A stretch of 64,000 bases of DNA from Alphaproteobacteria bacterium (GCA_033345195.1 JAWPOE010000004.1:182569-246568), one strand, 5' to 3'; shown: positions 12,516 to 63,990, counted from the stretch's first letter. The notes: generated by a model from the letters alone, not told the origin. A program made the numbers and translations.

Positions 12516-15500
12516 TCACTGCCAGTCATTCACGACAGAATACTCTGTTCCATTATTAACCTTTAACGCGCCCTCTATTGTCTCGCTTAGCGATCCAAAG
12601 AACACATCATCACCAACCCTGACGCGCAACGAAGGCGTTGTGCGTTGCGCACTGCGCAGGTAAATCACATTACCGCCCGCGTGCAACTTGCGCCCACAGT
12701 CCTCGGCCTCGTTCGCACCTGTACCATATCCAATCGTGGTCAGATTTGGAGGACATTGCTCTGGTACTTGGGCCGTTCGGAAGTTTTTGATTTGCCCACC
12801 AGCAAAATATTTACCTTCACCAACTGGACCACAGGATCCGTCTACAACATTGGCAAAAGAACCCAACTCTGCGTTACCCGCAAAATAATATCCTGGTGCA
12901 CAAACTGTTCCATTGTCCGTTCGACAGCCATATTCATAGGTACCACTTGCATAATCGCTGGCACCACACGCTAATTTTATCGTGCCTGTGTCATTCGTAA
13001 CTGTGCCACGGGCCCAGCAAGTGTGCAATGCGTCATATACGCCATCGCTTGACCAAGAATACTTACTTGTGAACGTACTATTTGATGGTGTCGGACACGA
13101 CTTACAGTTTGCTTGACCTGTTTCATCCTGATAAGTTAGTTCTGCACATGGTGTCTGTGTTGTATTGGCTGGGCCCTGGGTAAAATACCCTTTTGCTGCT
13201 TTCAGACACGATGTTTTACCGGTGTCTGGTTGATATTCCCCAGGCAGACAGGGTTCACGTCCCTGAATGCTGTCGCTGAACGAATAGGTTCCGTCAATGG
13301 GACAGTAATACCCCGCCGAACATGCCTCACATGTCGTCGACCGCGCCGGCAGATACGTACCTGCGTCACATTTCGACAGCTTAGACGCAAACAATTCACC
13401 AATATAACCGATTGTAACGTCACTATCGCGTCCTATTGTACCATCCAAACCAATCACACGTTGGGGATACGGTGTAAAATGATTATTATAATTCTCTACA
13501 TAATAAATAAGAGTGCTTGTTGTCACCTTCGCTTCATCACTTATTACAGGACCCCAGTCACAATTCTCGGTAAAACACCATTTGTGCGGGAATGTATAGC
13601 CTGTCTGGGTTAAATTTTGGGATGGCAGTACACAGTCAAGCTGGCTATAACACTTTAAAACACCATTATCCGTACCATTATATCTCGTAGAAGTATTAAG
13701 AAGCATATCTCTAACTAATATGTCACCGTTTCCGCCGTTTTTATTTAAAATAAACCCGGCATAACACCCATTTTGAGATGTATTACCCACATCTGATAAT
13801 ACATATGGGTAACTACGCACGTTGCGACATAGGCCACAACTCTGTAGTTGTGAGGCCCAGGTCAATGTTGTTCGGCTACCATAGGTCACCTTTTTAGAGT
13901 TAGGACATATGTAGCCCTGTGGACTTGGTTCACATGCACCTGTACCGGGGTTCCACAGGGTACCCGCCACACATGTTCTATAACAAGCATTTTCCGAACC
14001 GGTTGCAGCATCCGACGTCCAATTCGTTGGACACTGGTTTTGTGTTACACTGGTCGACCCAGCTGGACAGTAATAACCAGCGGTACATTCTTTCCACCGT
14101 GCCGTCAACGTTACATCCGCATCAACATTCCAGTTCAAGAATGAATTACCAGATGCATCATAATACATACTGCCGTTATACCACCATCCGTCAAAGACAT
14201 AACCGGCACGTGTTGGCAGCCTTGTTAATTCAGGCATTGGCTGAAAATACGTTGCGGTCACAGATGTTGGCAAATGACCAGACCCACCATTTGCATCTAA
14301 TGTCACAGTATATGTTTTTGCCACCCAACATGCATACAACGTTGCATCTGCCGTATACGCAGTATAAAAGGTTGACGCGATACGACCATCGGCATCGATA
14401 CGCTGGGTCCCAGAACAAGCTGTACTGGTATAATATCCACCAAATGTATAACCTGTTTTGGTTGGCAGTGTAATCGGGTTGGCACCCAACGTCACACTCG
14501 AAATCGTCATCTTTTTATTCAGTGCCATACTATCCAGATAAACACCATCGGCATACACCGAATATATTGCCGTCGTCCCAGCCGTGGTTGCACTTTGATT
14601 ATTCAGCGTCAGCGTATTTATCTTGCGGCGTGCCGGATAGTAAGTCGCAGTTGCCGCCGTTGATGTAACCCTTGGCGAAAGAGTAAGCGACACGCCAGAA
14701 TTTGGCAAGGTGTAAGTTGTATACCAGCCATCAAAAATCTTGTATCCTGACGCCGGTGTTAATGTCGCCGGACTGGGCATTGAACATACCGTGTTATATT
14801 TACAACACTGGGTTATAGTGTTGGCACTGGAACTGGGGGTCCATGTCTTTGGATTTCCACAGCCATCCGTCCATGTCAATGTTGCCTCATACGCACCATA
14901 CGCATTTAACGTCACGTCACGATAACAATCTGTCTGCGCCCCTGCACCTGCCGCCGACGTCCAATTCGTTGGACACTGGTTTTGTGTCACACTGGTCGAC
15001 CCAGCCGGACAGTAATAACCCGCAGTACATGCCTCCCATTGTGCATATAGCGTGGTTGGTTGGGTAAACCGCGTGGTTGATGCGTCGGCATAATAACCGG
15101 TTGGTTTTATAATCAGTGTACCACCTCTTGCGCCCGTATAATACCCCGTGAACACATAACCTGCGCGCGTCGGTACCGTAATTGGATTCTCTGTACCTGA
15201 CATCTTGTTTGCCAAAGCAGAATCCAGGTAAACACCAGAACCGTATTTTGAATATATCGCCGTTGTGCCGGATGATGTTGCGCCAGAACTGTTTAACGTT
15301 ATAGTCACTGCTTTCGAAGTATGCGCCGGATAGTAAGACACAGAGGATGAGGTTGATATAATATAAAACGTCTTGGTCGTACCGCCTGATACATTTGTCG
15401 ATGATGACCCCCAACCACCGGTAAAGTTCACATATGGATGATACAACGCATTCTGCGTAGTAGTTGAAGAAGACGACGCCTGCGTCACCGTCGGGAAAGT

Positions 15501-16019
15501 ACAAGCCGTGTTATAATAACATTGCGTTGTCAATGCAGTTGTTCCAGTTGATGACACAGTTGTACTGGTGACCGGGTTTGTCATAGACAGTACTCCCGTC
15601 GCAGTAATTCCATTGGCAGTTTTGTATAATTTAACATCGCGATAACACTTTGTCTGCGCCCCCGCGCCTGCCGCCGACGTCCAATTCGTCGGACACTTGC
15701 TTTGTGTCGCACTGGTCGACCCCGCCGGACAGTAATACCCCGCAGTACATGTGGCATTTGGCGCGCTTAAACCCGTGGTGGTACATGCCTTACCCGCAGT
15801 GCAAAGTGTTCTGGCATTCGTGCCACCTGTACAGTAATAACCCTGCTCACACTGTTTACACGAATTTTCGACACCGGTGCCGCTTAAATAATACCCCGGA
15901 TTACAGGACGTGTATTTTTTTAATGTCGGACACGTATACCCCGCACCGAATGCATTAACGGTAAAAAACGAAACGACTAAAATCGCGCAAAAACGCAGAA
16001 ATCTTGAAAATCTTCCCAC
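12516..16019 (-). CDS. Giant secreted surface protein with Listeria-Bacteroides (Flg_new/InlB B-repeat-like) repeats and Cys-rich GYYCPAGS modules; putative adhesin
   Basis: 1167 aa with GTG start, an AGAGGAAG RBS and signal peptide MGRFSRFLRFCAILVVSFFTVNAFGA. CTAGYYCPAGSTSxTQxxCPTNWTS modules occur three times, and TLxxNGG..PTRAGYxFxGWY Flg_new-like units are repeated. Confidence 0.7.
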   Translation of the reverse strand: MGRFSRFLRFCAILVVSFFTVNAFGAGYTCPTLKKYTSCNPGYYLSGTGVENSCKQCEQGYYCTGGTNARTLCTAGKACTTTGLSAPNATCTAGYYCPAGSTSATQSKCPTNWTSAAGAGAQTKCYRDVKLYKTANGITATGVLSMTNPVTSTTVSSTGTTALTTQCYYNTACTFPTVTQASSSSTTTQNALYHPYVNFTGGWGSSSTNVSGGTTKTFYIISTSSSVSYYPAHTSKAVTITLNSSGATSSGTTAIYSKYGSGVYLDSALANKMSGTENPITVPTRAGYVFTGYYTGARGGTLIIKPTGYYADASTTRFTQPTTLYAQWEACTAGYYCPAGSTSVTQNQCPTNWTSAAGAGAQTDCYRDVTLNAYGAYEATLTWTDGCGNPKTWTPSSSANTITQCCKYNTVCSMPSPATLTPASGYKIFDGWYTTYTLPNSGVSLTLSPRVTSTAATATYYPARRKINTLTLNNQSATTAGTTAIYSVYADGVYLDSMALNKKMTISSVTLGANPITLPTKTGYTFGGYYTSTACSGTQRIDADGRIASTFYTAYTADATLYACWVAKTYTVTLDANGGSGHLPTSVTATYFQPMPELTRLPTRAGYVFDGWWYNGSMYYDASGNSFLNWNVDADVTLTARWKECTAGYYCPAGSTSVTQNQCPTNWTSDAATGSENACYRTCVAGTLWNPGTGACEPSPQGYICPNSKKVTYGSRTTLTWASQLQSCGLCRNVRSYPYVLSDVGNTSQNGCYAGFILNKNGGNGDILVRDMLLNTSTRYNGTDNGVLKCYSQLDCVLPSQNLTQTGYTFPHKWCFTENCDWGPVISDEAKVTTSTLIYYVENYNNHFTPYPQRVIGLDGTIGRDSDVTIGYIGELFASKLSKCDAGTYLPARSTTCEACSAGYYCPIDGTYSFSDSIQGREPCLPGEYQPDTGKTSCLKAAKGYFTQGPANTTQTPCAELTYQDETGQANCKSCPTPSNSTFTSKYSWSSDGVYDALHTCWARGTVTNDTGTIKLACGASDYASGTYEYGCRTDNGTVCAPGYYFAGNAELGSFANVVDGSCGPVGEGKYFAGGQIKNFRTAQVPEQCPPNLTTIGYGTGANEAEDCGRKLHAGGNVIYLRSAQRTTPSLRVRVGDDVFFGSLSETIEGALKVNNGTEYSVVNDWQ
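14020..15760. repeat. Intragenic long direct repeats (three about 80-bp near-identical cores spaced about 720-930 bp apart) inside the surface-protein gene
   Basis: GACGTCCAATTCGTTGGACACTGGTTTTGTGT..GGTCGACCCAGC(C/T)GGACAGTAATAACC recurs at about 14020, 14950 and 15670. Antisense ORFs in the ORF track also recur (..PPTSNSLDTGFVSHWSTQPDSN..). Confidence 0.8.
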
Positions 16020-16136: not shown

Positions 16137-16167
16137 CCCCCCCCCGTTGGAGTGTGTGTGGGGGGGT
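16137..16167. repeat. Homopolymeric C9, (GT)4 and G7 tracts in the upstream region of the surface-protein gene
   Basis: CCCCCCCCC at 16137-16145, then GTTGGAGTGTGTGTG, then GGGGGGG at 16161-16167. These lie 118-148 bp upstream of the GTG start at 16019 on the coding strand. Confidence 0.85.
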
Positions 16168-16207
16168 GGGACACGCAGTGCCGGGGTAAAAATCGCAAAT
16201 ACACGTA

Positions 16208-17017
16208 CTATATAACCTTGCCCTGGGTTGGATAGAATGTTAACTGTATCTTTTTCCATTTATCAAATTCATTTGCTGGCAACATGCGCAACGGCTGGCA
16301 CGTATTAATCGCCGCCCGTATCGTATCCAACACATACGCGAATGCCGGGTCTGTTTCCGCACGCGATTCTGATTCAAACCAAACATCTTGAACGGTGCCA
16401 TTTTTTCGCATTGTCAAATGCGCCACCGCACGAATATCTGTGATATCTGGACGCGTGGTATCGACAACCCAACAGCGCGTCATCGCAACACGCAATGCAT
16501 CAACAACAGATATCGTCAGGGTTCTGTCCAGGGATAAAACCTCGCGATTGACACGCACAACTTTCTTTTTCTTTGGCGCGGCCGGCGCATCCGTGACAGG
16601 TTTTGATGCTTCCTTTGATTTTTCTTTCTGTGGCTCTGGCTTTTTTTCCGGTTCTTCCACCTTTTCATCTGGTTCCGGTTCTGGTTCCGGCTCTTCAACC
16701 AATGTTGGTGTTTCTATTTCTACCTTTTCTGGTTCTTCTGCCTTTACTTCCTTGGCATCTGGCTTTGCCACCGGGGCAGGGGTCGGTTCTTCCACTTTCT
16801 GTTCAACAACCTGACCAACATTATAAAGTTTTGTTTCATCACCAGACACAACAACCTGGTTCAAATCAATTTCAATAATTTCAATCCTGTCTGGCGTCAC
16901 CAGGCGCGCACGGTTAACAACAATCGCAAACGACGTTATCATAATTGCAACCAACGCCAAATGTCCGCCAACAGACATCAACAGGTTTTCTGATGAAAAT
17001 TGATTAAACTTCGCCAT
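16208..17017 (-). CDS. tolA: TolA/TonB-like energy-transducer protein
   Basis: An N-terminal TM anchor (LALVAIMITSFAIVV), a Pro/Glu/Lys-rich linker (EEPEPEPEPDEKVEEPEKKPEPQKEK) and a C-terminal TolA/TonB-like domain. It follows tolQ-tolR. Confidence 0.6.
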   Translation of the reverse strand: MAKFNQFSSENLLMSVGGHLALVAIMITSFAIVVNRARLVTPDRIEIIEIDLNQVVVSGDETKLYNVGQVVEQKVEEPTPAPVAKPDAKEVKAEEPEKVEIETPTLVEEPEPEPEPDEKVEEPEKKPEPQKEKSKEASKPVTDAPAAPKKKKVVRVNREVLSLDRTLTISVVDALRVAMTRCWVVDTTRPDITDIRAVAHLTMRKNGTVQDVWFESESRAETDPAFAYVLDTIRAAINTCQPLRMLPANEFDKWKKIQLTFYPTQGKVI

Positions 17018-44283: not shown

Positions 44284-46677
44284 TTATTTTATTACAAAAT
44301 TAACCAATTTCTTTGGCACCACAATCGTTTTGATTATTGTTGCACCATCTAATTTGTTGCCGGCCGCACTTTTTGCCGCTGCAACAATAGCATCTTCATC
44401 TGCGTTCGCAGGGACAACGAAGTCCGCAGCACGCTTACCATTAACAGATACAACGATTGTCATTTCCGTCGCAATCAATTTAGACGCATCGTACGTCGGC
44501 CATTGTGCAAATACCAACATGTCCGCATGCCCCAACTTTTCCCACATTTCTTCGGTCAAGTGTGGTGCAAACGGATTTAACATCTGCAACAATGTTTCGT
44601 ACGCAGGGCGGGGCATTTTACCGCCAAAGGCGTTCAAATATTCCATCATCGCCGAAATCGCCGTATTAAACTTCATATTTTCCAGACGTTCTGTCACATC
44701 AGCAATCAATTTATGTACCAAGCGTTCTTGTTCCGCCGTCATCGCATCATCGGTCAGATTATCTGCCAATGCCTCTACACGTTTCAAGAAACGTTCAACG
44801 CCACGCAATGTATCTTCGGACCAGTTTGCACTTTGTTCCCATGGCCCCAAATACAATATCGCCATGCGACATGCGTCTGCACCACTGCGTGCGACAACAT
44901 CCGAACTTGGCACCGTGTTTCCACGCGACTTTGACATCTTGGAACCATCGGCCGCCATAATCAATCCGTTACTTGTGCGCTTTTTATATGGTTCAACACC
45001 TGGGACATAACCCAAATCGGCCAACGCCTTGTACCAGAAACGCGAATACAGCAAATGACGTGTTGTATGTTCCATACCGCCGTTATAATGGTCGACTGGC
45101 ATCCATTTATCCAACTGTGCACGCGAACAGAATTCATTATTATTCTTGGAATCCAGATAGCGCAAGAAATACCAAGATGAACCCGCCCATTGTGGCATAG
45201 TATCCGTTTCGCGTTTCGCCGGCGCACCACAATGCGGGCATGTTGTATTTACCCAATCTGTGGCACGCGCCAATGGCCCTTCGCCATCATCTGTTGGCTT
45301 ATAATCAGACATATATGGTTGCATTAATGGCAATTCAGATTCTGGCACAGGCACCCAACCACACTTTTCGCAATAAACCAGCGGGATTGGTTCACCCCAG
45401 TACATCTGACGCGAAAAACCCCAATCCTTTAATTTATACTTGGTTGTACCACGTGCAAAACCATGTTCTGTTCCATATTTAATCGCGGCTGCAATCGCAT
45501 CGTCTTTGCCCATACCATCCAAGAACGATGAATTTATATGCTTGCCATCACCTTCCCATACCTGGTCTGGTTCGCCACCGGCCAACACAGGAATGATTTC
45601 CAACCCGAACTTTTTTGCAAAGTCCCAGTCACGACTATCATGCGCAGGAACCGCCATAATTGCGCCAAAACCATAATCTGCCAAAACATAATCTGAAATA
45701 AAGATCGGAATTTCACGACCGTTAAATGGATTTACTGCCTTTATACCCTGCAATTCGACACCTGTCTTTTCGCGTGTAACGTCTGTACGTTCGATTTCTG
45801 ATTTCGCACGTGCTGCTGCGATATATTCACGCACCTGATTTGGATTTGTAATTTGACCTTCGTCCAACCACTTTTTTACCAGCGCATGTTCCGGCGCAAT
45901 AACACAGAATGTCACGCCAAAGATTGTATCAACGCGCGTTGTATAAACAGTCATAGTGTCATCACCAACACGGAAATCAACATCCGCACCATGCGAACGG
46001 CCAATCCAGTTAATCTGTTCTGTTTTTACACGTTCTGGATAATCAACCAAGGCCAAATCATCAATCAATCTGTCCGCATACTTTGTAATCGCCAAATTCC
46101 ATTGCAATTTCATCTTTTTTTCAACCGGCCCATGACAGCGTTCACAGCAACCATCTTCTAATTCTTCATTGGTCAGATTCGTTTTACACGCCGGGCACCA
46201 GTTCATTGGCAATTCAGACTTATACGCCAACCCGGCCTTAAAAAACTGAATAAACATCCATTGTGTCCATTTGATAAATTCCGGATCAGATGTCGCGACC
46301 GTTGATTCTGGGTCAAAAGACAGACCCATAATTGAAATATCACGTTCAAAAATCTTGACCAATTCTGCGACAGATTCACTTGGGTGTTTACCTATCTTGG
46401 TTGCATAGTTTTCAGACGAAATACCCATTGAATCGTATCCGATTGGGAACAACACATCATAACCACGCATACGACGCCAACGCGCCAACACATCCATACC
46501 CGTATACGGCAACATATGTCCCACATGCAATCCAGAACCCGAAGGGAAGGGGAATTCAATCAAATTATAATATTTTGGTTTTGCACCATCGTTTTTTGGT
46601 ACAAATGCACGCGCTTCTCGCCACTTTTTTTGCCATTTTGATTCACGGTCATGAATTTTTTTCATATCGTCTGCCAT
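44284..46677 (-). CDS. leuS: Leucine--tRNA ligase
   Basis: HIGH region FPFPSGSGLHVGHMLPYTGMDVLARW, KMSKS (GSKMSKSRGNTV) and a CP1 editing-domain-sized insert; 797 aa. Confidence 0.9.
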   Translation of the reverse strand: MADDMKKIHDRESKWQKKWREARAFVPKNDGAKPKYYNLIEFPFPSGSGLHVGHMLPYTGMDVLARWRRMRGYDVLFPIGYDSMGISSENYATKIGKHPSESVAELVKIFERDISIMGLSFDPESTVATSDPEFIKWTQWMFIQFFKAGLAYKSELPMNWCPACKTNLTNEELEDGCCERCHGPVEKKMKLQWNLAITKYADRLIDDLALVDYPERVKTEQINWIGRSHGADVDFRVGDDTMTVYTTRVDTIFGVTFCVIAPEHALVKKWLDEGQITNPNQVREYIAAARAKSEIERTDVTREKTGVELQGIKAVNPFNGREIPIFISDYVLADYGFGAIMAVPAHDSRDWDFAKKFGLEIIPVLAGGEPDQVWEGDGKHINSSFLDGMGKDDAIAAAIKYGTEHGFARGTTKYKLKDWGFSRQMYWGEPIPLVYCEKCGWVPVPESELPLMQPYMSDYKPTDDGEGPLARATDWVNTTCPHCGAPAKRETDTMPQWAGSSWYFLRYLDSKNNNEFCSRAQLDKWMPVDHYNGGMEHTTRHLLYSRFWYKALADLGYVPGVEPYKKRTSNGLIMAADGSKMSKSRGNTVPSSDVVARSGADACRMAILYLGPWEQSANWSEDTLRGVERFLKRVEALADNLTDDAMTAEQERLVHKLIADVTERLENMKFNTAISAMMEYLNAFGGKMPRPAYETLLQMLNPFAPHLTEEMWEKLGHADMLVFAQWPTYDASKLIATEMTIVVSVNGKRAADFVVPANADEDAIVAAAKSAAGNKLDGATIIKTIVVPKKLVNFVIK

Positions 46678-46776
46678 TTTTTCTGCCTCAGATTATATTA
46701 TTGTTAAAAACATCCCGAATTTTACCTATCTAAACACAAAAATTCAAGACAATTCTTGGGAATTATGATGTTTTTA

Positions 46777-46805
46777 TTGACAGCCAGACATAAAATTGAT
46801 AAAAT
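46777..46805 (+). promoter_or_regulatory. Sigma70-like promoter (TTGACA-17 bp-TAAAAT) for the phase-variable gene
   Basis: TTTTTATTGACAgccagacataaaattgaTAAAAT lies 42 bp upstream of ATG 46848. The same TTTTTATTGAC-N17-TAAAAT architecture recurs before the paralogue. Confidence 0.6.
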
Positions 46806-46847
46806 CCTAGGCAGGACGCGTTATAAACTAATAAGAGAGAGCATATC

Positions 46848-47531
46848 ATGGCCGCACAAACAAACAAACAAACAAACAAACAAACAAACAAACAATTAAA
46901 TAAAATTCTGTGGGGAATCATCAGCGCTGCAATTTGCATATTTTATAAGTCAGAGGTTCGCGCAACACATCTAACCAACTGCTCTGCCACCTTAACTTCA
47001 TCTGTACGGCTTAACACAACTGCTTATACCTATTCTGTATGCAGTGCGGCAACAATATGCAATGGCACCTGCGCCAACAAATGGATTTCTGATTTTTCCT
47101 ATGTCACAAACGACGGCACAAAATACCAACTATGCGATTATCCCAACAGTTATGTATCATCATGCAAGGATGCATCTGGAAACATAATCAACGACCCATC
47201 CTTGTTCTATACATGTCGAACAAAGGGCCTCTGTACCGGCTGTCCTAACGGTGGCAAAACTTCTGATGCTGCATATGTTAAAGTATCCCCTGCCATTACA
47301 AACAAAACCTATTATGTCTGTTCGCAATACAACCAAATAACAGACCAACTGATAGACAATTATTATTATTACATGCAGGTGTATACGTTAAATTGTCCAA
47401 GTGGGGGCGTCTGGGATCGCGCACACACAATAGAAGATTGTTATCTGCCAGATGGCACATACACTGACAATACCGGCACTTTCACAATCAGCGGCACCAC
47501 AGGCGCAACATCCTGTACATACGTAAACTAA
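46848..47531 (+). CDS. Cys-rich secreted/surface protein with a 5' (CAAA)8 repeat; candidate phase-variable gene
   Basis: MAAQTNKQTNKQTNKQLNKILWGIISAAICIFY..; 15 Cys. The in-frame tetranucleotide repeat encodes (QTNK)n before the hydrophobic signal or anchor segment. Confidence 0.6.
   Translation: MAAQTNKQTNKQTNKQLNKILWGIISAAICIFYKSEVRATHLTNCSATLTSSVRLNTTAYTYSVCSAATICNGTCANKWISDFSYVTNDGTKYQLCDYPNSYVSSCKDASGNIINDPSLFYTCRTKGLCTGCPNGGKTSDAAYVKVSPAITNKTYYVCSQYNQITDQLIDNYYYYMQVYTLNCPSGGVWDRAHTIEDCYLPDGTYTDNTGTFTISGTTGATSCTYVN
46857..46891 (+). repeat. Tetranucleotide microsatellite (CAAA)8+CAA inside the 5' coding region
   Basis: CAAACAAACAAACAAACAAACAAACAAACAAACAA, counted by eye: eight full units plus three bases (35 bp). 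Confidence 0.9.
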
Positions 47532-47545
47532 AAACAAGGTTTTTA

Positions 47546-47574
47546 TTGACCCATTCCCAAACATGCATTAAAAT
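47546..47574 (+). promoter_or_regulatory. Sigma70-like promoter (TTGACC-17 bp-TAAAAT) for the paralogue, flanked by an 8-bp inverted repeat
   Basis: TTTTTATTGACCcattcccaaacatgcatTAAAAT. CCATTCCC at 47551-58 and GGGAATGG at 47589-96 bracket the -10 and the transcription start. Confidence 0.55.
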
Positions 47575-47606
47575 ATACACGTATTAATGGGAATGGCAGA
47601 AAAACA

Positions 47607-48314
47607 ATGAATAAACTTAGCAAACTTTTTTGGCACATAATCAGCACGGCAATTTGTGTTTCTTTTCGCAATGAATGTAACGCAGTTGACATTAATTACA
47701 TCAGCATGAAACGGGATTGTTGTGTAACCAAAACAGAATTGGTTTATTGGTGGAACATACTCCTATCCCCAAACGACGACACGTGGCACAATTATTGCTC
47801 ATATCCCAGCAAATACGACGCAGATTACGAACCATCCATACAAAAACCAACAGAACCCATTAACTGGAACACTTACGAAATGCTTGTAATAGACGGCAAC
47901 TTTTTTGCAGAAATATACAACAACCACCATTATTTAAACAGTTGCATTGAACGCACCACTAATAAAACATTATACAACGACGGTTCATCGAATTTTATTG
48001 ACCAATGCAACCTAAACAAACTATTCATTCACAAATGTCCGTACAACGGCATCGTTAAAAACCCCATCACAATAATAAGGGGAAAAGAATCAAACACAGA
48101 ACATTTTATTTGCACCACTGCAAACCTGACCCACAATGCCACAGGCGGTACTCTTAAACTATACAGACAATTTTCCATTTGCAGTGCGTGCGACGGCATC
48201 AATAACAACACTCCCAGTATAACATCCTGCTATCAACCTGCAACCACAGAAAACACCCTATACGAAAACAGATACGGATATTTCACACTAGAGAGCGACT
48301 GCCATGCGAAATAA
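47607..48314 (+). CDS. Cys-rich secreted protein, paralogue of the 46848 gene (no repeat tract)
   Basis: The N-terminus MNKLSKLFWHIISTAICVSF parallels LNKILWGIISAAICIFY in the 46848 product; 16 Cys. Confidence 0.55.
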   Translation: MNKLSKLFWHIISTAICVSFRNECNAVDINYISMKRDCCVTKTELVYWWNILLSPNDDTWHNYCSYPSKYDADYEPSIQKPTEPINWNTYEMLVIDGNFFAEIYNNHHYLNSCIERTTNKTLYNDGSSNFIDQCNLNKLFIHKCPYNGIVKNPITIIRGKESNTEHFICTTANLTHNATGGTLKLYRQFSICSACDGINNNTPSITSCYQPATTENTLYENRYGYFTLESDCHAK

Positions 48315-48334
48315 TAAATAGACGAATTAAAAAA

Positions 48335-49285
48335 ATGACAAAAACACAACCAAAAGTATCAATTATTATATGCAATCATAACTATTCCGCCTTTATTGGT
48401 GATGCCATAGAATCCGTAAAAAACCAAAGTTTAAAAAATTGGGAATGCATTATAATTGACGACGCATCAACCGACACATCTGTATCTGTAATAAAAAAAC
48501 ACATCGCGCGCGACAAACGCTTTCAATTGATACAGTTGCAAAAAAAATCTGGTGTATGTGTCGCACGAAACAGCGGATTAGATGTCGCAACCGGCGAATA
48601 TATCGCATTCTTGGATTCCGACGACTGTTTCACAGAATACGCACTGGAAATGCTGTTGCACATGGCACAAACAACGAATGCAGATATGGCTGGGGGTGCA
48701 ACAAATATTGTACCAAATACATTTAAATACATACCATCCAAACAACATTCTTGGAACGCGTCAATGATGGGCGCACGCAACAATCCAGCGGCATTCCTGC
48801 TGATGCCAAAAAGCCATAATTGGTGTTGGATTTGGCGACGCATATATAAACGCAGTCTGATTGGCGACACACGATTTAACACCAATTTTACCACATTTGG
48901 CGACGATTTAACGTTTATGTTGGATTTATGCTATCGCGCAAACTTTGTTGTCGAAACATCCAACATATCCGTTTATCATCGAATACATGGTGACGCAATT
49001 ACATCACGTGAATTTGGGCCACATTATTTTGATTGGTTCCCGACATACTTTGAACACATTGAAAAAAATTTATTAGATAAGTACGACAGTCATTTTTGGC
49101 GTGCCTTTTATCGAAACACATTCAGCTATATGCTATACGAAACAACATTTCGCCCAAAACACATGGGCAAATATGAAATTGCGGGACGTAACGCCTTGCT
49201 GGCGTCTGTACAGCATATTCCACGCCGATACTTAACAGCTAAACAGCGAATACTGTGCAAATTTTTAACATGGATAAAAAAATAG
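48335..49285 (+). CDS. Family 2 glycosyltransferase
   Basis: VSIIICNHNYSAFIGDAIESV..IIIDDASTDTS..AFLDSDD is the GT-A DxD architecture. Confidence 0.8.
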   Translation: MTKTQPKVSIIICNHNYSAFIGDAIESVKNQSLKNWECIIIDDASTDTSVSVIKKHIARDKRFQLIQLQKKSGVCVARNSGLDVATGEYIAFLDSDDCFTEYALEMLLHMAQTTNADMAGGATNIVPNTFKYIPSKQHSWNASMMGARNNPAAFLLMPKSHNWCWIWRRIYKRSLIGDTRFNTNFTTFGDDLTFMLDLCYRANFVVETSNISVYHRIHGDAITSREFGPHYFDWFPTYFEHIEKNLLDKYDSHFWRAFYRNTFSYMLYETTFRPKHMGKYEIAGRNALLASVQHIPRRYLTAKQRILCKFLTWIKK

Positions 49286-50223
49286 ACATTCTTTATGCAT
49301 TTGATACCAGATTCTGGAAACTGGCCACTGTTTCCATGTATTCTTTATTAAAACATCAATACCCAGATACAAAATGCACAATATACTGCATGGTTGCACC
49401 ACATACACATGGGAAACGTCAAATTAAGAAAATATTTCAACGTTTCCCCAACGCCAGATTAGTGTGGCGGACCATAAAAAAACATGAAAACCCATTCTTT
49501 GAATACGATTTTTCCAGATGGTCGCCCGTGATTTTTTACAGACTGTTTGCTGGACAAATATTTCCAGAAGTCGATAAATTATTATATCTGGATTCCGATA
49601 CACTGATTTGCGATGACCTGACAGAACTATATAACACAGATATATCTAAATACACCATGGGCGCGGTACAAGATATGGCACCACGCAAAGACCCGAACAA
49701 TAAAAACGGAATCTATGTCGCCAACTTTGCAAAGAAACACTTAAAAAACGGCCCTTATTTCAACAGTGGCGTATTGTTAATAAATACAAAAGAGCAAGCA
49801 AAAAACATAGACTTATTAAAAAATATTAAAGTAAAACTTACATATCCTGACCAAGACATACTAAATGTCGCATTACAAGGCAAAATCAAACCACTGGACT
49901 TAAAATACAACATGGTTCCAGGCCTACCAATTCCAATACACTTTACAGAACAACAATCCATTGACGCAACAAAAAACCCAGTCATACACCATTTCTATGC
50001 GGCAAAACCCTATCACTATCAACACGTTCCACGCGATGCATATTCCGCATTCTACAAGGCCACAACCGAAATCGGCATGCATCCAGACGATTTTTTAAAC
50101 CACGAAATAAAACATCTGCAACGCCGAAATAAACAATTAAACAAACCATCAAAAATACTGTCACCATTACGGGTATACAATAACAAAATCACCTTTTTCG
50201 GCATAACGATTGCCCGGCCATAA
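49270..50223 (+). CDS. Family 8 glycosyltransferase (LPS/LOS glycosyltransferase-like)
   Basis: IDILYAFDTRFWKLATVSMYSL..LLYLDSDTLICDDLTELY..YFNSGVLLIN GT8 motifs. Confidence 0.8.
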   Translation: MDKKIDILYAFDTRFWKLATVSMYSLLKHQYPDTKCTIYCMVAPHTHGKRQIKKIFQRFPNARLVWRTIKKHENPFFEYDFSRWSPVIFYRLFAGQIFPEVDKLLYLDSDTLICDDLTELYNTDISKYTMGAVQDMAPRKDPNNKNGIYVANFAKKHLKNGPYFNSGVLLINTKEQAKNIDLLKNIKVKLTYPDQDILNVALQGKIKPLDLKYNMVPGLPIPIHFTEQQSIDATKNPVIHHFYAAKPYHYQHVPRDAYSAFYKATTEIGMHPDDFLNHEIKHLQRRNKQLNKPSKILSPLRVYNNKITFFGITIARP

Positions 50224-50262
50224 AAACACCAAAAATCAAATAAATAATAAAAGTATATAAAT

Positions 50263-50985
50263 CTATTTATCAACATAAAAACATGCCAAGAATTCAATAT
50301 TCCCGCTGCCGCCACGTATCGGCGATTCCGTCACACCGCACAGACTAAAACCATACTTTTCAAAAGCCCCCACAACACGGCTAATCGACCATTCATGCCA
50401 TTCGTCAGACTTTATAACACCGTTATATTTCGACGCAACTTCCCGCGGGACTTCAAACTGCGGCTTTATCAGCGCAATCACGCTTTTTGCACCCCACCGT
50501 GGCAAGACATCTACAATATTCGTCAGTGACACAAACGAAACATCTATCACTATTAAATCAACCGACGCCAACGGGGGCAGGGTACGTATATCAGTCTGCT
50601 CCAACGACACAACGCGCGGATTTTCGCGCAACTCTGACACCAGCTGATTGGTACCAACATCAACCGCATAAACACGGGTCGCACCACGCTTTAACAAAAC
50701 ATCTGTAAAACCGCCCGTACTGGCACCAACATCTAAACACGTCATACCTGCTGGATTTATTTTGAAAGAATCCAACGCATGCTCTAACTTTAAACTGCCA
50801 CGGCCACTGGAATAGGGCAATTCACGCCCAACCAACACATCAGAATCAAGAATCGTCTGGCTTGGCTTCTTGGCAATTACACCGTTAACCGTCACCAGCC
50901 CAGCACCAATTGCTGCCACAGCCTTGGCACGACTGGGGTATATTTTTTGAAAAACCAATGCCTGATCTAATCTCATAACTAACAT
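50263..50985 (-). CDS. tlyA: TlyA-family rRNA 2'-O-methyltransferase (hemolysin A homologue)
   Basis: An N-terminal S4 domain and an FtsJ-like MTase domain (CLDVGASTGGFTDVLLKRGATRVYAVDVG). Confidence 0.85.
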   Translation of the reverse strand: MLVMRLDQALVFQKIYPSRAKAVAAIGAGLVTVNGVIAKKPSQTILDSDVLVGRELPYSSGRGSLKLEHALDSFKINPAGMTCLDVGASTGGFTDVLLKRGATRVYAVDVGTNQLVSELRENPRVVSLEQTDIRTLPPLASVDLIVIDVSFVSLTNIVDVLPRWGAKSVIALIKPQFEVPREVASKYNGVIKSDEWHEWSISRVVGAFEKYGFSLCGVTESPIRGGSGNIEFLACFYVDK

Positions 50986-51584
50986 AATACTGCATTAATA
51001 CACAAAAATCAACCGTCACGCAAACACCACCATAACATATACAGCAAAAACAAAACACAACTCTACAAAACAAAACCAATTTATTAATATCATACTCCAC
51101 CCCACCACACCATTTTTATGTAAAAAAACACCATTTTTATATAAAAACCACTCCAAAAACCGCAGAAATCCGGCATTTTTTGCATTTTTAACAGCCAAAA
51201 TAGGGCGTTTTTTTTACTTTTTTTACCACCACAACAAACATCTCAACAAATTATTAAAAAACAACTTTAACAGAACATTTTTTCTATCTGTTTTGACAAT
51301 TATATTAAAAAACACGCATATATACAAAAACACCATACAAAAGGGATTTTTACTACAAAAAAAGCCGCACAAAAAAAACGCGCATCAATAAAATTGCGCC
51401 AGCAAGACTAAAACCAAGCACAAACAAACAAGAACTGCATATTATGTATATGTTTTGGACTGCGCCAGCAAGACCAAACTATACATAATATACATTATGC
51501 GCCTTTTGTAATTCGCTATTTCCCAACAAAAAAAGCAGGACTTTTTCGCCCTGCTTTTTACAGAATTCAAAAACTTTGAAAGCA
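50986..51584. other. Unusually long (about 600 bp) CA-rich non-coding region with direct and inverted repeats
   Basis: No ORF longer than 60 aa with coding features. TGCGCCAGCAAGAC occurs twice (at about 51388 and 51453), an inverted repeat ATATTATGTAT / ATACATAATAT lies nearby, and there is a terminator AAAAAGCAGGACTTTTTCGCCCTGCTTTTT at about 51531-51560. Confidence 0.6.
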
Positions 51585-62285: not shown

Positions 62286-63776
62286 CTATTTCCACCTATC
62301 TGGAATACTGTCCCAATCGTCTAACCCCTCGCAACCAGAATACGTACCATAATATGCGTCGGCCGGCCAAATTTCATACAGATACTGTCCATTTATCCGT
62401 GCCGACGGCCCAGTCAGATTTCCAGACCAAGCAAAAGTGCTTTGAAACATAAAATCGGCGGCGGGTGCGGTTGTATCCAAACCCGCGAACAGATTTTCGG
62501 GTATTGATGTCAGCCCAGTGGATTGGAAAGTGCCATAAAACATCATTTCTGCTGGTGGGCCTTGAATCCCCGCAAATAAATCTTCGGGTATTGATGTCAG
62601 CCAAGTGGATTGGAAAGTGCCATAAAACATCATTTCTGCTGGTGGGCCCTGAATCCCGGCAAATAAATTTTCCGGGATTGCCGTCAGCCCCATGCAGCCA
62701 CTAAAAGTATTCTCAAACATCCCTTCTGCTGGTGGTCCTTGAATCCCTGCAAATAAATCTTCGGGGATTGATTCTATCGACAATTCAGTAAAAGTGTGCG
62801 CAAACATATTTTTTGCTGGCGGCCCTTGAATACCCGCAAACAGATTTTCGGGAATTGATTCTATAAACGTGGCTGAAAAAGTGCCATCAAACATCCCTTC
62901 TGCCGGTGGTCCTTGAATCCCAGAAAATAAATCCGACGGTATGGCTGTTATATAGGCAAAGTTGAAAGTTTGTTTAAACATATTTTCCACGGGGGCGCCG
63001 TGAATCCCTGAAAACAATCCCGATGGGATATCAATATTCAAATCATATGCGTCTGCAAATGTACCAATAAATCTGGGTTGTGAACCGTCTTCTAGTGTTG
63101 GAAATATACACCCCAAACATCCATCAATATCCGTTATCCCAAGGGGGCATTTACCACCAAAACTCCACTCATCCAGACACGCAAAAGAGGTCCCCAATAT
63201 CACGGTGGATAAATCTGGGTCATCGGAATATTTTGTGGCTTGGCCCCCGATGCGTACAGTATAAATGCCATCACTGGCATACTCATGCCCAAACCATTGT
63301 TCACCAACTGTATTTTTTTCAATGACCTCCTTGGTACCGTCACCCCAATTGATATTGTATGTACCCGCCGCCGAAATCATTATTAAATGGTTGGGGTCAC
63401 GTATGTCGCCACTATAACCCTCGCGGTGATAATAATGCGTTAACTTTAATTTATAATCAGTACTATTACCTTTTACAATCAACCCATCCACCGCCGTGTC
63501 TGTGGCAATTGTATCTGCGGCGACGGTGGTCGCAAATTCCCCATTGCCATAGTCTGTCGTCTTTTCCCCGTTTAGCATTTCATTCGCAACATCAACCGCC
63601 GTCAACAGGTATTTCATATTCGCCGCAACACGTGGATTGGTCAGTTCACTATTATATGGTATGGTTATGTCCCATTTCTGGGCAATTGCATTATGTACAT
63701 ATTCAACATTTACAATCTGGGCGGAATGTGCAACACCACAAAACAAGAAAAATAAAAACACAAATAATCGTTTCAT
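62286..63776 (-). CDS. Secreted protein with seven tandem 29-aa repeats (IPxxLFAGIQGPPAExMFxxTFxxxxLTS)
   Basis: Signal peptide MKRLFVFLFFLFCGVAHS. The protein repeats are seen directly, and two adjacent 87-bp DNA units at 62484-62570 and 62571-62657 are about 95% identical. Confidence 0.6.
   Translation of the reverse strand: MKRLFVFLFFLFCGVAHSAQIVNVEYVHNAIAQKWDITIPYNSELTNPRVAANMKYLLTAVDVANEMLNGEKTTDYGNGEFATTVAADTIATDTAVDGLIVKGNSTDYKLKLTHYYHREGYSGDIRDPNHLIMISAAGTYNINWGDGTKEVIEKNTVGEQWFGHEYASDGIYTVRIGGQATKYSDDPDLSTVILGTSFACLDEWSFGGKCPLGITDIDGCLGCIFPTLEDGSQPRFIGTFADAYDLNIDIPSGLFSGIHGAPVENMFKQTFNFAYITAIPSDLFSGIQGPPAEGMFDGTFSATFIESIPENLFAGIQGPPAKNMFAHTFTELSIESIPEDLFAGIQGPPAEGMFENTFSGCMGLTAIPENLFAGIQGPPAEMMFYGTFQSTWLTSIPEDLFAGIQGPPAEMMFYGTFQSTGLTSIPENLFAGLDTTAPAADFMFQSTFAWSGNLTGPSARINGQYLYEIWPADAYYGTYSGCEGLDDWDSIPDRWK
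62400..62950. repeat. Intragenic tandem 87-bp repeat array
   Basis: CGGGTATTGATGTCAGCC(C/A)AGTGGATTGGAAAGTGCCATAAAACATCATTTCTGCTGGTGGGCC(T/C)TGAATCCC.. is repeated, with more diverged units on both flanks. Confidence 0.8.
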
Positions 63777-63789
63777 GACGGCGGGCTCC

Positions 63790-63990
63790 TTATTCTGCGG
63801 TTGGTAGTGGTGGCGTGGGTACCACAAACGTGCCAGATACAGTATACGAACCCGCCATGGTTTGGTTGGCGGTGGATGATGTATCAACCTTGGTCGTAGT
63901 TGCTGTGTTAACGTATGCTGTCGACGCAATATCAGCACGTGTCACAACCGGCACAAACAACGAACAAAAGAAAACTAACAAAATTCTCAT
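63790..63990 (-). CDS. Small secreted Thr/Ser-rich hypothetical protein (66 aa)
   Basis: Signal peptide MRILLVFFCSLFVPVVTRA. It is short and could be spurious. Confidence 0.3.
   Translation of the reverse strand: MRILLVFFCSLFVPVVTRADIASTAYVNTATTTKVDTSSTANQTMAGSYTVSGTFVVPTPPLPTAE

What the first reader, a model, noticed from the sequence alone, without database searches (positions are those of the whole stretch)
46777..50223. Tetranucleotide (CAAA)8 microsatellite in the 5' coding end of a Cys-rich surface-protein gene: classic slipped-strand phase-variation switch, next to a promoter-sharing paralogue and GT2/GT8 glycosyltransferases
Directly visible in the sequence: ATG GCC GCA then eight CAAA units plus CAA at 46857-46891, in frame, encoding (QTNK)n. 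A hydrophobic signal or anchor segment and a 15-Cys domain follow. Gain or loss of one 4-bp unit shifts the frame, the mechanism described for Haemophilus lic/lgtC and Neisseria genes. Such a tract is unusual in an alphaproteobacterium. The downstream paralogue at 47607 has a related N-terminus but no repeat. Both genes carry near-identical TTTTTATTGAC-N17-TAAAAT promoters, and the second is bracketed by an 8-bp inverted repeat, so they look like a duplicated contingency locus. The adjacent GT2 and GT8 genes suggest a surface-glycan or LOS-related variable cluster.
Basis: partly seen in the sequence, partly recalled or inferred. Interest (0 to 1): 0.8.

Follow-up and report, generated by a model that had tools for sequence, protein, structure and literature searches.

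The report
Repeat-driven on/off switch in gut symbiont
A perfect 40-base run of a four-letter DNA repeat sits just after the start codon of a secreted, cysteine-rich protein gene in an uncultured small-genome gut bacterium (Candidatus Enterousia); it has the anatomy of a known slippage on/off switch, though length variation could not be checked.

Summary
The repeat is real but was miscounted. It is (ACAA)10, that is (CAAA)9+CAA, at 46856-46895, perfect over 40 bp. The next-longest perfect microsatellite in the 64 kb window is 12 bp, and the chance expectation is 0.00.

It lies 8 nt after the only usable start codon (ATG 46848) of a 227-aa gene. It encodes (QTNK)3Q in the n-region of a signal peptide. 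Counts of 7, 10 or 13 units keep the frame. Every other count stops 2-3 codons after the tract.

The organism is Candidatus Enterousia (order Rs-D84, genomes under 1 Mb). The gene belongs to a rare orphan family: 18 hits among 1.84 billion representative proteins, with no Pfam, PDB or fold match. This family is always followed by a GT2 gene, and by a GT8 gene wherever the contig is long enough.

The block sits in a 3.5-kb strain-variable island between leuS and tlyA. A second allele from two other metagenomes is only 47% identical in the mature protein. It keeps the same tract (over 30 nt) and an identical signal-peptide coding sequence. No other family member has the extension.

The architecture matches Neisseria/Haemophilus autA/autB. 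Length heterogeneity could not be tested, because no read data were available.

Verdict: a well-supported but unproven new member of a known kind of switch. The LOS claim and the "duplicated contingency locus" claim are not shown.

The parts
46758..50259 (.). Strain-variable island between leuS (44284-46677, minus strand) and tlyA (50263-50985, minus strand). It has lower G+C (0.38-0.39, against about 0.43 elsewhere).
   Evidence: blastn against L003 and L086 loses homology at 46757 and regains it at about 50260. Most relatives have tlyA directly next to leuS.
46777..46805 (+). Promoter-like site for ORF1: TTGACA, 17-nt spacer, TAAAAT, with a TG-extended -10.
   Evidence: 11 of 12 matches, the best in the region. 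It shares the 12-mer GTTTTTATTGAC with the ORF2 promoter (D8).
46833..46841 (+). Purine-rich ribosome-binding site AAGAGAGAG, 6 nt upstream of the ATG.
   Evidence: Read directly from the sequence.
46848..47531 (+). ORF1: a 227-aa Cys-rich secreted-type protein with 14 Cys, currently in the ON frame.
   Evidence: The family alignment shows conserved Cys residues, a CPxxG motif and a C-terminal DCY...G.Y...SC.Y motif. The AF2 model has pLDDT 77.
46856..46895 (+). (ACAA)10, equivalent to (CAAA)9+CAA: a perfect tetranucleotide tract encoding (QTNK)3Q.
   Evidence: TRF reports 10.0 copies at 100% match.
46897..46903 (+). Two TAA stops (46897-46899 and 46901-46903), one in each of the two out-of-frame readings directly after the tract.
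   Evidence: In-silico unit changes give the endings ...QTNN* and ...QTIK*. Read from the sequence.
46896..46964 (+). Signal-peptide core: LNK, the h-region ILWGIISAAICIF, and YKSEVRA with a likely cleavage after VRA.
   Evidence: Hydropathy profile. The motif is conserved in all family members. The first 83 nt of L083 (tract plus this core, window 46866-46948) match the window at 82 of 83 nt.
47546..47574 (+). Promoter-like site for ORF2: TTGACC, 17-nt spacer, TAAAAT.
   Evidence: The same hexamers are kept at the same place in four other ORF2 alleles.
47540..47607 (.). Inverted repeat bracketing the ORF2 promoter, with a 9-bp perfect core at 47551-47559 and 47588-47596.
   Evidence: I1. Its function was not tested.
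47607..48314 (+). ORF2: a 235-aa member of the second subfamily of the same Cys-rich family, with no repeat.
   Evidence: The alleles P0002-P0005 share one identical signal peptide, which differs from ORF2's own, and their mature parts are 31-48% identical to ORF2 and to P0002.
48335..49285 (+). GT2-family glycosyltransferase.
   Evidence: Pfam PF00535, E = 2.6e-35. It directly follows the Cys-rich gene in every locus seen.
49255..50223 (+). GT8-family glycosyltransferase. The GTG start at 49255 gives the N-terminus M-x-x-F-x-M, which is conserved in homologues.
   Evidence: Pfam PF01501, E = 1.6e-33.

Best explanation
The (ACAA)10 tract is a slipped-strand, translational on/off switch (a contingency locus) for ORF1. 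ORF1 is a Sec-exported, cysteine-rich protein of an orphan family in Candidatus Enterousia.

Proposed mechanism:
1. Transcription starts at the strong sigma-70-like promoter at 46777-46805.
2. Translation can start only at ATG 46848 and must read through the tract to reach the signal peptide.
3. With 10 units, or 7 or 13, the frame is open. The tract then adds (QTNK)n to the positively charged n-region of the signal peptide.
4. Gain or loss of one or two units during replication moves the ribosome into a frame that ends at TAA 46897 or TAA 46901. No exported protein is made.
5. ORF2, GT2 and GT8 have their own promoter. They should stay on, apart from possible polarity on read-through transcripts.

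The switch sits in a 3.5-kb island whose gene content and alleles differ between near-identical strains. The likely role is therefore to vary an exposed or secreted molecule that is under diversifying selection from a host, a partner cell, phage or the immune system.

Shown: the anatomy, the frame logic, the single start codon, membership of a real conserved family, retention of the tract in a diverged allele, and island variability.
Inferred: that unit number actually changes at a useful rate, that the protein is exported, and what the selective agent is.
For: - Tract: a perfect 40-bp tract that is a unique outlier.
- Start codon: the only in-frame ATG/GTG/TTG before codon 119 is codon 1. It has an AAGAGAGAG site 6 nt upstream.
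- Frame logic: 7, 10 or 13 units give the full ORF. All other counts from 5 to 15 stop within 2-3 codons.
- A real gene:
  - 18 relatives in 1.84e9 representative proteins, with conserved Cys residues and motifs.
  - An AF2 model with pLDDT 77.
- The extension is an addition: every homologue starts at a Met aligned to ORF1 residue 14, so the QTNK extension is an add-on to a normal signal peptide.
- A second allele (L083/L084, two independent samples):
  - It has the same tract at more than 30 nt.
  - 82 of 83 nt at the 5' end are identical.
  - The mature protein is 47% identical and the rest of the island is 81% identical at the nucleotide level.
- Plausible origin: SSR-less relatives carry the seed CAAACAA right at the ATG, in L093 and L085.
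- Island variability between strains:
  - Strains with 98.6% identical LeuRS have ORF2 at 36-39% and GT2 at 80% identity.
  - The same strains carry an unrelated 139-aa gene in place of ORF1.
- Same architecture as a proven system: AAGC repeats directly after the start codon, within signal-sequence DNA, of autA/autB (PMC5118866).
Against: - No read-level or between-strain count of units could be obtained.
  - The exact allele exists in only one other sample.
  - All short-read contigs break inside the tract for trivial k-mer reasons.
- Ten units is short. The linear fit for H. influenzae mod (u = 2e-5*L - 2e-4; PMC3546556) reaches zero at L = 10, so the switching rate may be modest.
- Only one such tract exists in 64 kb, and none was found in the neighbourhoods of 80 relatives. 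There is therefore no sign of a genome-wide contingency repertoire.
- The stops after the tract follow naturally from the AT-rich N-terminal codons (AAT AAA ATT) of the family. They are not evidence of design.
- No signal-peptide predictor was available, so export is judged by inspection.
Confidence: 0.7

Rival explanations
1. The tract is a fixed, in-frame, low-complexity N-terminal extension, the relic of a past expansion. It does not change often enough to act as a switch. ORF1 is simply expressed constitutively with a longer n-region.
For: - No heterogeneity data exist.
- Ten units is at the low edge of the range calibrated in H. influenzae.
- The window copy is ON.
- This is the only tract of its kind in the sampled DNA.
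Against: - A tract kept for its peptide would tolerate synonymous changes and would decay, yet it is perfect over 40 bp.
- It is still over 30 nt and perfect in an allele whose mature protein is only 47% identical.
- No other family member needs such an extension.
Confidence: 0.15
2. The main effect is graded rather than on/off. In-frame changes (7, 10 or 13 units, giving 2, 3 or 4 QTNK) tune the length and charge of the signal-peptide n-region, and so tune export efficiency or retention.
For: The tract codes for Lys-containing units placed exactly in the n-region. In-frame lengths are reachable by steps of three units.
Against: - In measured tetranucleotide tracts, single-unit steps dominate. 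In H. influenzae mod, 54 of 63 events were +1 or -1.
- Most changes would therefore be frameshifts, and any tuning would ride on top of on/off switching.
- Homologues work with a 3-5 residue n-region.
Confidence: 0.08
3. The tract is an assembly or sequencing artefact, or translation starts downstream so that the tract lies in the 5' UTR.
For: Repeats are error-prone in assemblies. The exact unit number rests on one assembly.
Against: - The same tract end and flanks appear in three further independent assemblies from SRR22345191, ERR15157061 and ERR15157072.
- There is no ATG/GTG/TTG in frame between the tract and codon 119.
- There is no purine-rich site inside the A/C-only tract.
Confidence: 0.03

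Closest known systems
Neisseria meningitidis / Haemophilus autA and autB (lav) autotransporter genes with (AAGC)n
   Same: [quoted passage not shown] In-frame numbers give an N-terminally extended signal peptide, and other numbers give early stops. The genes lie in variable genomic contexts and exist as divergent alleles (PMC5118866).
   Different: There is no homology. ORF1 is a 227-aa Cys-rich protein with no autotransporter domain. The unit is ACAA/CAAA. The host is an uncultured gut alphaproteobacterium. Variation has been shown experimentally for autA/autB but not here.
Neisseria opa genes with (CTCTT)n in the signal-peptide coding region (from general knowledge, not checked in a paper here)
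   Same: A coding repeat whose unit is not a multiple of 3 lies inside the signal peptide of an exposed protein. There are hypervariable mature domains behind a conserved 5' end.
   Different: In opa the unit is a pentamer in the hydrophobic core, the genes form a multi-copy family per genome, and the product is a beta-barrel adhesin. Here there is a single tract, in the n-region, on an unrelated protein.
Haemophilus influenzae tetranucleotide contingency genes (lic1A/lic2A CAAT, lgtC GACA, hgp CCAA, mod AGTC)
   Same: The mechanism is the same: a tetranucleotide tract at the 5' end of the ORF. The association with glycosyltransferase genes is also similar. The measured rate depends on tract length (PMC3546556).
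   Different: In H. influenzae the glycosyltransferases themselves carry the tracts, and tracts are usually longer (17-38 units in the calibrated mod constructs). Here GT2 and GT8 have no tract, and the switch is on the upstream Cys-rich protein.

Membership tests
SSR-mediated translational phase-variable (contingency) gene | A long, perfect simple-sequence repeat whose unit length is not a multiple of three. | tested here: met
   (ACAA)10, 100% perfect, 46856-46895. Chance expectation is 0.00.
SSR-mediated translational phase-variable (contingency) gene | The tract lies inside the translated reading frame, downstream of the functional start codon. | tested here: met
   The only in-frame ATG/GTG/TTG before codon 119 is codon 1, which has a ribosome-binding site 6 nt upstream. 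The functional start was inferred, not mapped.
SSR-mediated translational phase-variable (contingency) gene | A change of one unit abolishes the product. | tested here: met
   In silico, counts of 5-15 units give a full ORF only at 7, 10 and 13. Otherwise translation stops 2-3 codons after the tract.
SSR-mediated translational phase-variable (contingency) gene | Unit number varies within populations or between close strains. | not testable with these tools
   No reads are available. The exact allele is in only one other sample. k=31 contigs end inside the tract, which shows only that it exceeds 30 nt in SRR22345191, ERR15157061 and ERR15157072. Metagenome and genome scans found no further copy.
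SSR-mediated translational phase-variable (contingency) gene | Reversible ON/OFF expression of the product. | not testable with these tools
   This needs a culture, a reporter or meta-omics data.
Autotransporter AutA/AutB family | Autotransporter beta-domain and passenger domain. | tested here: not met
   No Pfam or NCBIfam hit for ORF1 or any of 22 family members. The protein is only 227 aa. It works like autA/autB but is not a member.
Sec (type I) signal peptide | A positively charged n-region, a 10-15 residue hydrophobic core, and small residues at positions -3 and -1. | tested here: inconclusive
   By inspection: the n-region has 5 Lys, the core is ILWGIISAAICIF (mean hydropathy 2.25), and VRA follows 7 residues later. 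The pattern is conserved across the family. No dedicated predictor was available, so a signal anchor is not excluded. There is no lipobox.
GT8 LOS/LPS alpha-glycosyltransferases (LgtC/WaaI-like) | A GT8 catalytic domain, and equivalog-level similarity to an LPS enzyme. | tested here: inconclusive
   The Pfam GT8 domain is met at E = 1.6e-33. The best NCBIfam hit, LPS 3-alpha-galactosyltransferase, scores 70.5 bits against a cutoff of 461. The acceptor is unknown. In L096 the module lies beside lpxD-fabZ.
GT2 glycosyltransferases | A GT2 (GT-A) domain. | tested here: met
   PF00535, E = 2.6e-35. All NCBIfam equivalogs score far below their cutoffs, so the specificity is unknown.

The most novel reading that the evidence does not exclude
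The leuS-tlyA island encodes a previously undescribed three-gene surface or secretion module: an orphan-fold Cys-rich protein, GT2 and GT8. The obligately dependent, reduced-genome Enterousia lineage would use it to interact with its host or partner.

The mature domains are swapped or diversified behind a conserved 5' 'expression cassette' of promoter, start codon, signal peptide and, in one allele class, a microsatellite switch. The SSR-bearing 5' module is itself exchanged between alleles. The support for this is 82/83 nt identity next to a mature domain that is 47% identical.

If so, this would be the first contingency locus and the first antigenic-variation-like system described in order Rs-D84.
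Probability: 0.25. Interest if true: 0.65.

Novelty: new member of a known kind. Interest (0 to 1): 0.45.

Why it matters
Candidatus Enterousia (order Rs-D84) is known only from metagenome bins. It has genomes under 1 Mb and lacks a TCA cycle and respiration (PMC12306168). How it interacts with hosts or other cells is unknown.

A microsatellite switch on a secreted, fast-evolving, glycosyltransferase-linked protein, inside a strain-variable island, marks a candidate interaction locus. It can be tested cheaply by counting repeat units in existing reads.

It also shows that the contingency-locus strategy described for Haemophilus and Neisseria occurs in an uncultured commensal alphaproteobacterium. 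In addition, it defines a small orphan protein family with no detectable known fold.

The mechanism itself is textbook, so the value lies in the lead for this lineage rather than in a new principle.

Tried and rejected
- **Homologue searches with ORF1.** The word-indexed search found nothing. Back-translated scans of genome contigs and metagenome contigs found nothing. An exact DNA pattern spanning the tract's 3' edge, scanned against metagenome contigs, found nothing.
- **Exact-product look-ups.** Look-ups for ORF1, ORF2, GT2, TlyA and LeuRS returned only one other sample, SRR22345191. Its contigs end in the tract. Contig breaks at the tract were considered as evidence of heterogeneity and rejected. 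A 40-nt period-4 repeat makes a cycle in a k=31 graph regardless of heterogeneity.
- **Family and RNA searches.** Pfam, NCBIfam and PDB sequence searches on ORF1/ORF2 and the family gave nothing. Rfam and tRNA scans of the window were empty.
- **C9/G9 run at 16137-16145.** It was checked as a second possible switch and rejected. It is the stem of a C7...G9 hairpin followed by a T-run, so it is terminator-like.
- **GT8 in L083.** It looked like a pseudogene from the gene calls, but it is intact in frame 3.
- **SunS-type S-glycosyltransferase idea for GT2.** Rejected: 21 bits against a cutoff of 350, and only the generic N-terminal domain matches.
- **Literature.** Searches found no prior description of SSR switching in Enterousia or Rs-D84.
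Full report
**1. What is in the sequence**

The window holds a perfect tetranucleotide tract at 46856-46895. Tandem Repeats Finder reports period 4, 10.0 copies, 100% matches and no indels. A regular-expression scan gives (ACAA)10, 40 bp. The stated 'eight units, 46857-46891' is therefore a miscount.

The tract is a clear outlier:
- The next-longest perfect microsatellite in the 64 kb is 12 bp.
- A 20-nt piece of the tract, allowing 2 mismatches, is expected 0.00 times in 100 dinucleotide-preserving shuffles.
- In 1.37 Mb of homologous neighbourhoods from 80 related loci, the only other tetranucleotide SSR of 16 nt or more is an (ATAA)4.

**2. Position relative to the gene**

ORF1 runs from 46848 to 47531 on the + strand and encodes 227 aa. 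The sequence reads ATG GCC GC-(ACAA)10-TTA AAT AAA ATT CTG TGG. This gives MAAQTNKQTNKQTNKQ-LNKILWGIISAAICIFYKSEVRA-THL...

- A purine-rich AAGAGAGAG lies 6 nt upstream of the ATG.
- The best sigma-70-like match of the region lies at 46777-46805: TTGACA, 17-nt spacer, TAAAAT, 11 of 12 matches, with a TG.
- No other in-frame ATG, GTG or TTG exists before codon 119. The signal-peptide-bearing protein can therefore only be made by reading through the tract.
- Changing the unit number from 5 to 15 in silico keeps the ORF open only at 7, 10 and 13 units.
- All other counts terminate 2-3 codons after the tract, at TAA 46897-46899 or TAA 46901-46903.
- The window copy is in the ON frame.

**3. Is ORF1 a real gene, and what is it?**

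Word-indexed searches and back-translated scans found nothing. An exhaustive HMMER pass over 1.84 billion representative proteins found 18 relatives at E up to 1e-3, nine of them at E up to 1e-10. A profile search found four more of the ORF2 type.

The family members are 200-235 aa. They share three features:
- A strikingly conserved N-terminus, M-x-x-[IL]-x-K-[IL]-L-W-G-x-I-S-x-x-I-C-x-x-Y-K-x-[DE]-x-x-A.
- A set of invariant cysteines, at ORF1 positions C106, C132, C158 and C198 in all 25 aligned sequences, with C45, C65, C123 and C223 nearly invariant, plus a CPxxG motif.
- A C-terminal DC[YF]...G.[YF]...SC.Y motif.

ORF1 has 14 Cys, not 15. By inspection the N-terminus is a Sec signal peptide: a Lys-rich n-region, the 13-residue core ILWGIISAAICIF, and VRA seven residues later. 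No predictor was available, so a signal anchor is not excluded.

**4. The repeat is an add-on peculiar to ORF1**

In every homologue the initiator Met aligns with ORF1 residue 14. The phmmer hits correspondingly start at query residues 15-18 and subject residues 2-6, apart from P0014, which has an over-long called N-terminus. None has a QTNK extension. None of the loci I could read has an SSR.

SSR-less relatives carry the seed CAAACAA directly at the start codon:
- L093: ACACAAACAA-ATG-AAA.
- L085: GCAAACAA-ATG-AAC AAA.

The tract therefore plausibly grew from this native A/C-rich leader and N-terminus. In doing so it would have swallowed the old ATG and recruited a new one upstream. This origin is an inference.

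**5. Organism and genomic setting**

The flanking LeuRS is 97% identical to that of a Candidatus Enterousia MAG. The top 80 loci are Enterousia or unnamed gut and rumen Alphaproteobacteria. Enterousia belongs to the uncultured order Rs-D84. It has genomes under 1 Mb and lacks the TCA cycle and respiratory chains (PMC12306168).

In most relatives tlyA abuts leuS. In the window a 3.5-kb block (46758-50259), with lower G+C, is inserted there. The occupants of this site differ even between strains whose LeuRS is 98.6% identical:

| Locus or loci | Gene content at the site |
|---|---|
| Window and SRR22345191 | ORF1(SSR)-ORF2-GT2-GT8 |
| L083/L084 | A divergent ORF1(SSR)-ORF2-GT2-GT8 |
| L085-L088 | An unrelated 139-aa Cys protein-ORF2-GT2-GT8 |
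| L003 | The 139-aa gene only |
| L036 and L093-L095 | A single Cys-rich gene-GT2-GT8 |
| L053 | The module on the far side of tlyA |

Between the window and L085/L086 the protein identities are:

| Protein | Identity |
|---|---|
| LeuRS | 98.6-98.7% |
| TlyA | 87-88% |
| GT2 | 80% |
| GT8 | 76% |
| ORF2 | 36-39% |

This is a diversifying and recombining island. The Cys-rich gene is followed by GT2 in all eight distinct alleles with context, and by GT8 wherever the contig is long enough. That includes L091, and L096 where the trio lies beside fabZ-lpxD. The three genes therefore form a functional module whose acceptor substrate, LOS or the protein itself, is unknown. The GT2 and GT8 assignments are generic, because all NCBIfam equivalogs score far below their cutoffs.

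**6. The key comparative result**

L083 and L084 are identical contigs from two independent samples. They start with 30 nt of the same repeat and continue into an ORF1 allele.
- Their first 83 nt (tract plus signal-peptide core) match the window at 82 of 83 positions.
- Identity collapses exactly at the end of the hydrophobic core. The mature protein is 47% identical and the DNA is barely alignable.
- From GT2 onward the DNA is 81% identical.

A perfect tract of more than 30 nt is therefore retained behind very different mature domains. That is hard to reconcile with a decaying, functionless repeat. It fits selection for the switch, or modular exchange of the 5' cassette. ORF2 alleles show the same pattern without a repeat: P0002-P0005 share an identical signal peptide and promoter hexamers but have 31-48% identical mature parts.

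**7. What could not be shown**

Unit-number polymorphism, the defining behaviour of a contingency locus, was not testable.
- The exact allele occurs in one other sample only.
- All Logan contigs end inside the tract. Any 40-nt period-4 repeat must cause this in a k=31 graph, so the breaks are not evidence of heterogeneity.
- Ten units is modest. The linear calibration for H. influenzae mod (u = 2e-5*L - 2e-4, measured for 17-38 units) extrapolates to zero at L = 10 (PMC3546556).
- Against that, meningococcal autB varies between isolates with only 3-19 AAGC units (PMC5118866).

**8. Comparison with known systems**

The closest architecture is autA/autB of Neisseria and Haemophilus. [quoted passage not shown] Expression is determined by repeat number, and the genes exist as divergent alleles in variable contexts.

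ORF1 works like these but is not related to them, since it has no autotransporter domain. The opa pentamer and the H. influenzae lic/lgtC/hgp tetramers are the same kind of switch; this comparison is from general knowledge. Unlike lgtC, the glycosyltransferases here carry no tract. Literature searches found nothing on SSR switching in Enterousia or Rs-D84.

**9. Verdict**

The phase-variation reading is the best explanation (about 0.7), but it rests on anatomy and comparative retention, not on observed variation. 'Duplicated contingency locus' and 'LOS cluster' are not supported as stated.

This is a new member of a known kind of switch. It sits on a new orphan protein family, in a poorly known symbiont lineage. 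That makes it a good, cheaply testable lead rather than a new principle.

Noticed in passing
window 62482-62933 (inside ORF 62286-63938, minus strand): An 87-bp tandem repeat, 5.2 copies at 75% identity. It encodes 29-aa units (IPE[DN]LFAGIQGPPAE.MF..TF) in a 550-aa protein with an internal signal-like segment and no Pfam hit. It is probably a repeat-containing surface protein.
   Followed up: partly
window 12516-16019 (minus strand): A 1167-aa ORF whose only Pfam hit is one Listeria-Bacteroides repeat (Flg_new). This is another large candidate surface protein in a genome of under 1 Mb.
   Followed up: no
window 16137-16170: A C7...G9 hairpin followed by a T-run, downstream of ORF 16208-17017. 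It looks like an intrinsic terminator, not a homopolymer switch.
   Followed up: yes
window 50986-51584; L086 9823-10116: The A/C-rich tlyA-mscL intergenic region contains small imperfect repeats: (AAAAC)6, a 21-nt unit x2, a 14-nt unit x2.6 and (ACAA)3. In L086 a roughly 70-90 nt piece matching window 51393-51478 is present in several tandem copies.
   Followed up: no
L081 5232-5259 and 5797-5824: This is a termite-gut alphaproteobacterial MAG. A perfect (TCTATGC)4 lies in the signal-peptide codons of the lipoprotein gene directly after leuS (MKKISMLYALCSMLLLSAC...). A perfect (AAATCAG)4 lies just before the start of the next gene. These are possible heptanucleotide switches in a distant relative.
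   Followed up: partly
L085 2963-3010, L086 5960-6010, L089 118-165: In these ORF2 alleles the TAAAAT -10 hexamer lies only 8 nt before the ATG. The mRNA would be leaderless or nearly so. The window's ORF2 has a 32-nt spacer between the -10 hexamer and the ATG.
   Followed up: no
window 46705-46714 and 46767-46776: A perfect 10-bp inverted repeat (TAAAAACATC / GATGTTTTTA) straddles the left island boundary (46757) and abuts the -35 of the ORF1 promoter. It may be a chance match in AT-rich DNA, or an operator or recombination scar.
   Followed up: no
L003 9452-9871 (minus strand); L085 2543-2962; L086 5540-5959: A different 139-aa secreted Cys-containing protein (MKKLLSSL..., no Pfam or NCBIfam hit) occupies the ORF1 position in strains with nearly identical LeuRS. 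So the first slot of the island takes alternative cargo.
   Followed up: partly
L007 3169-3216; L071 4377-4463: Very long poly-T runs (T48, T27, T17) occur in related MAG contigs near mscL/tlyA. They could be assembly artefacts or real homopolymers.
   Followed up: no
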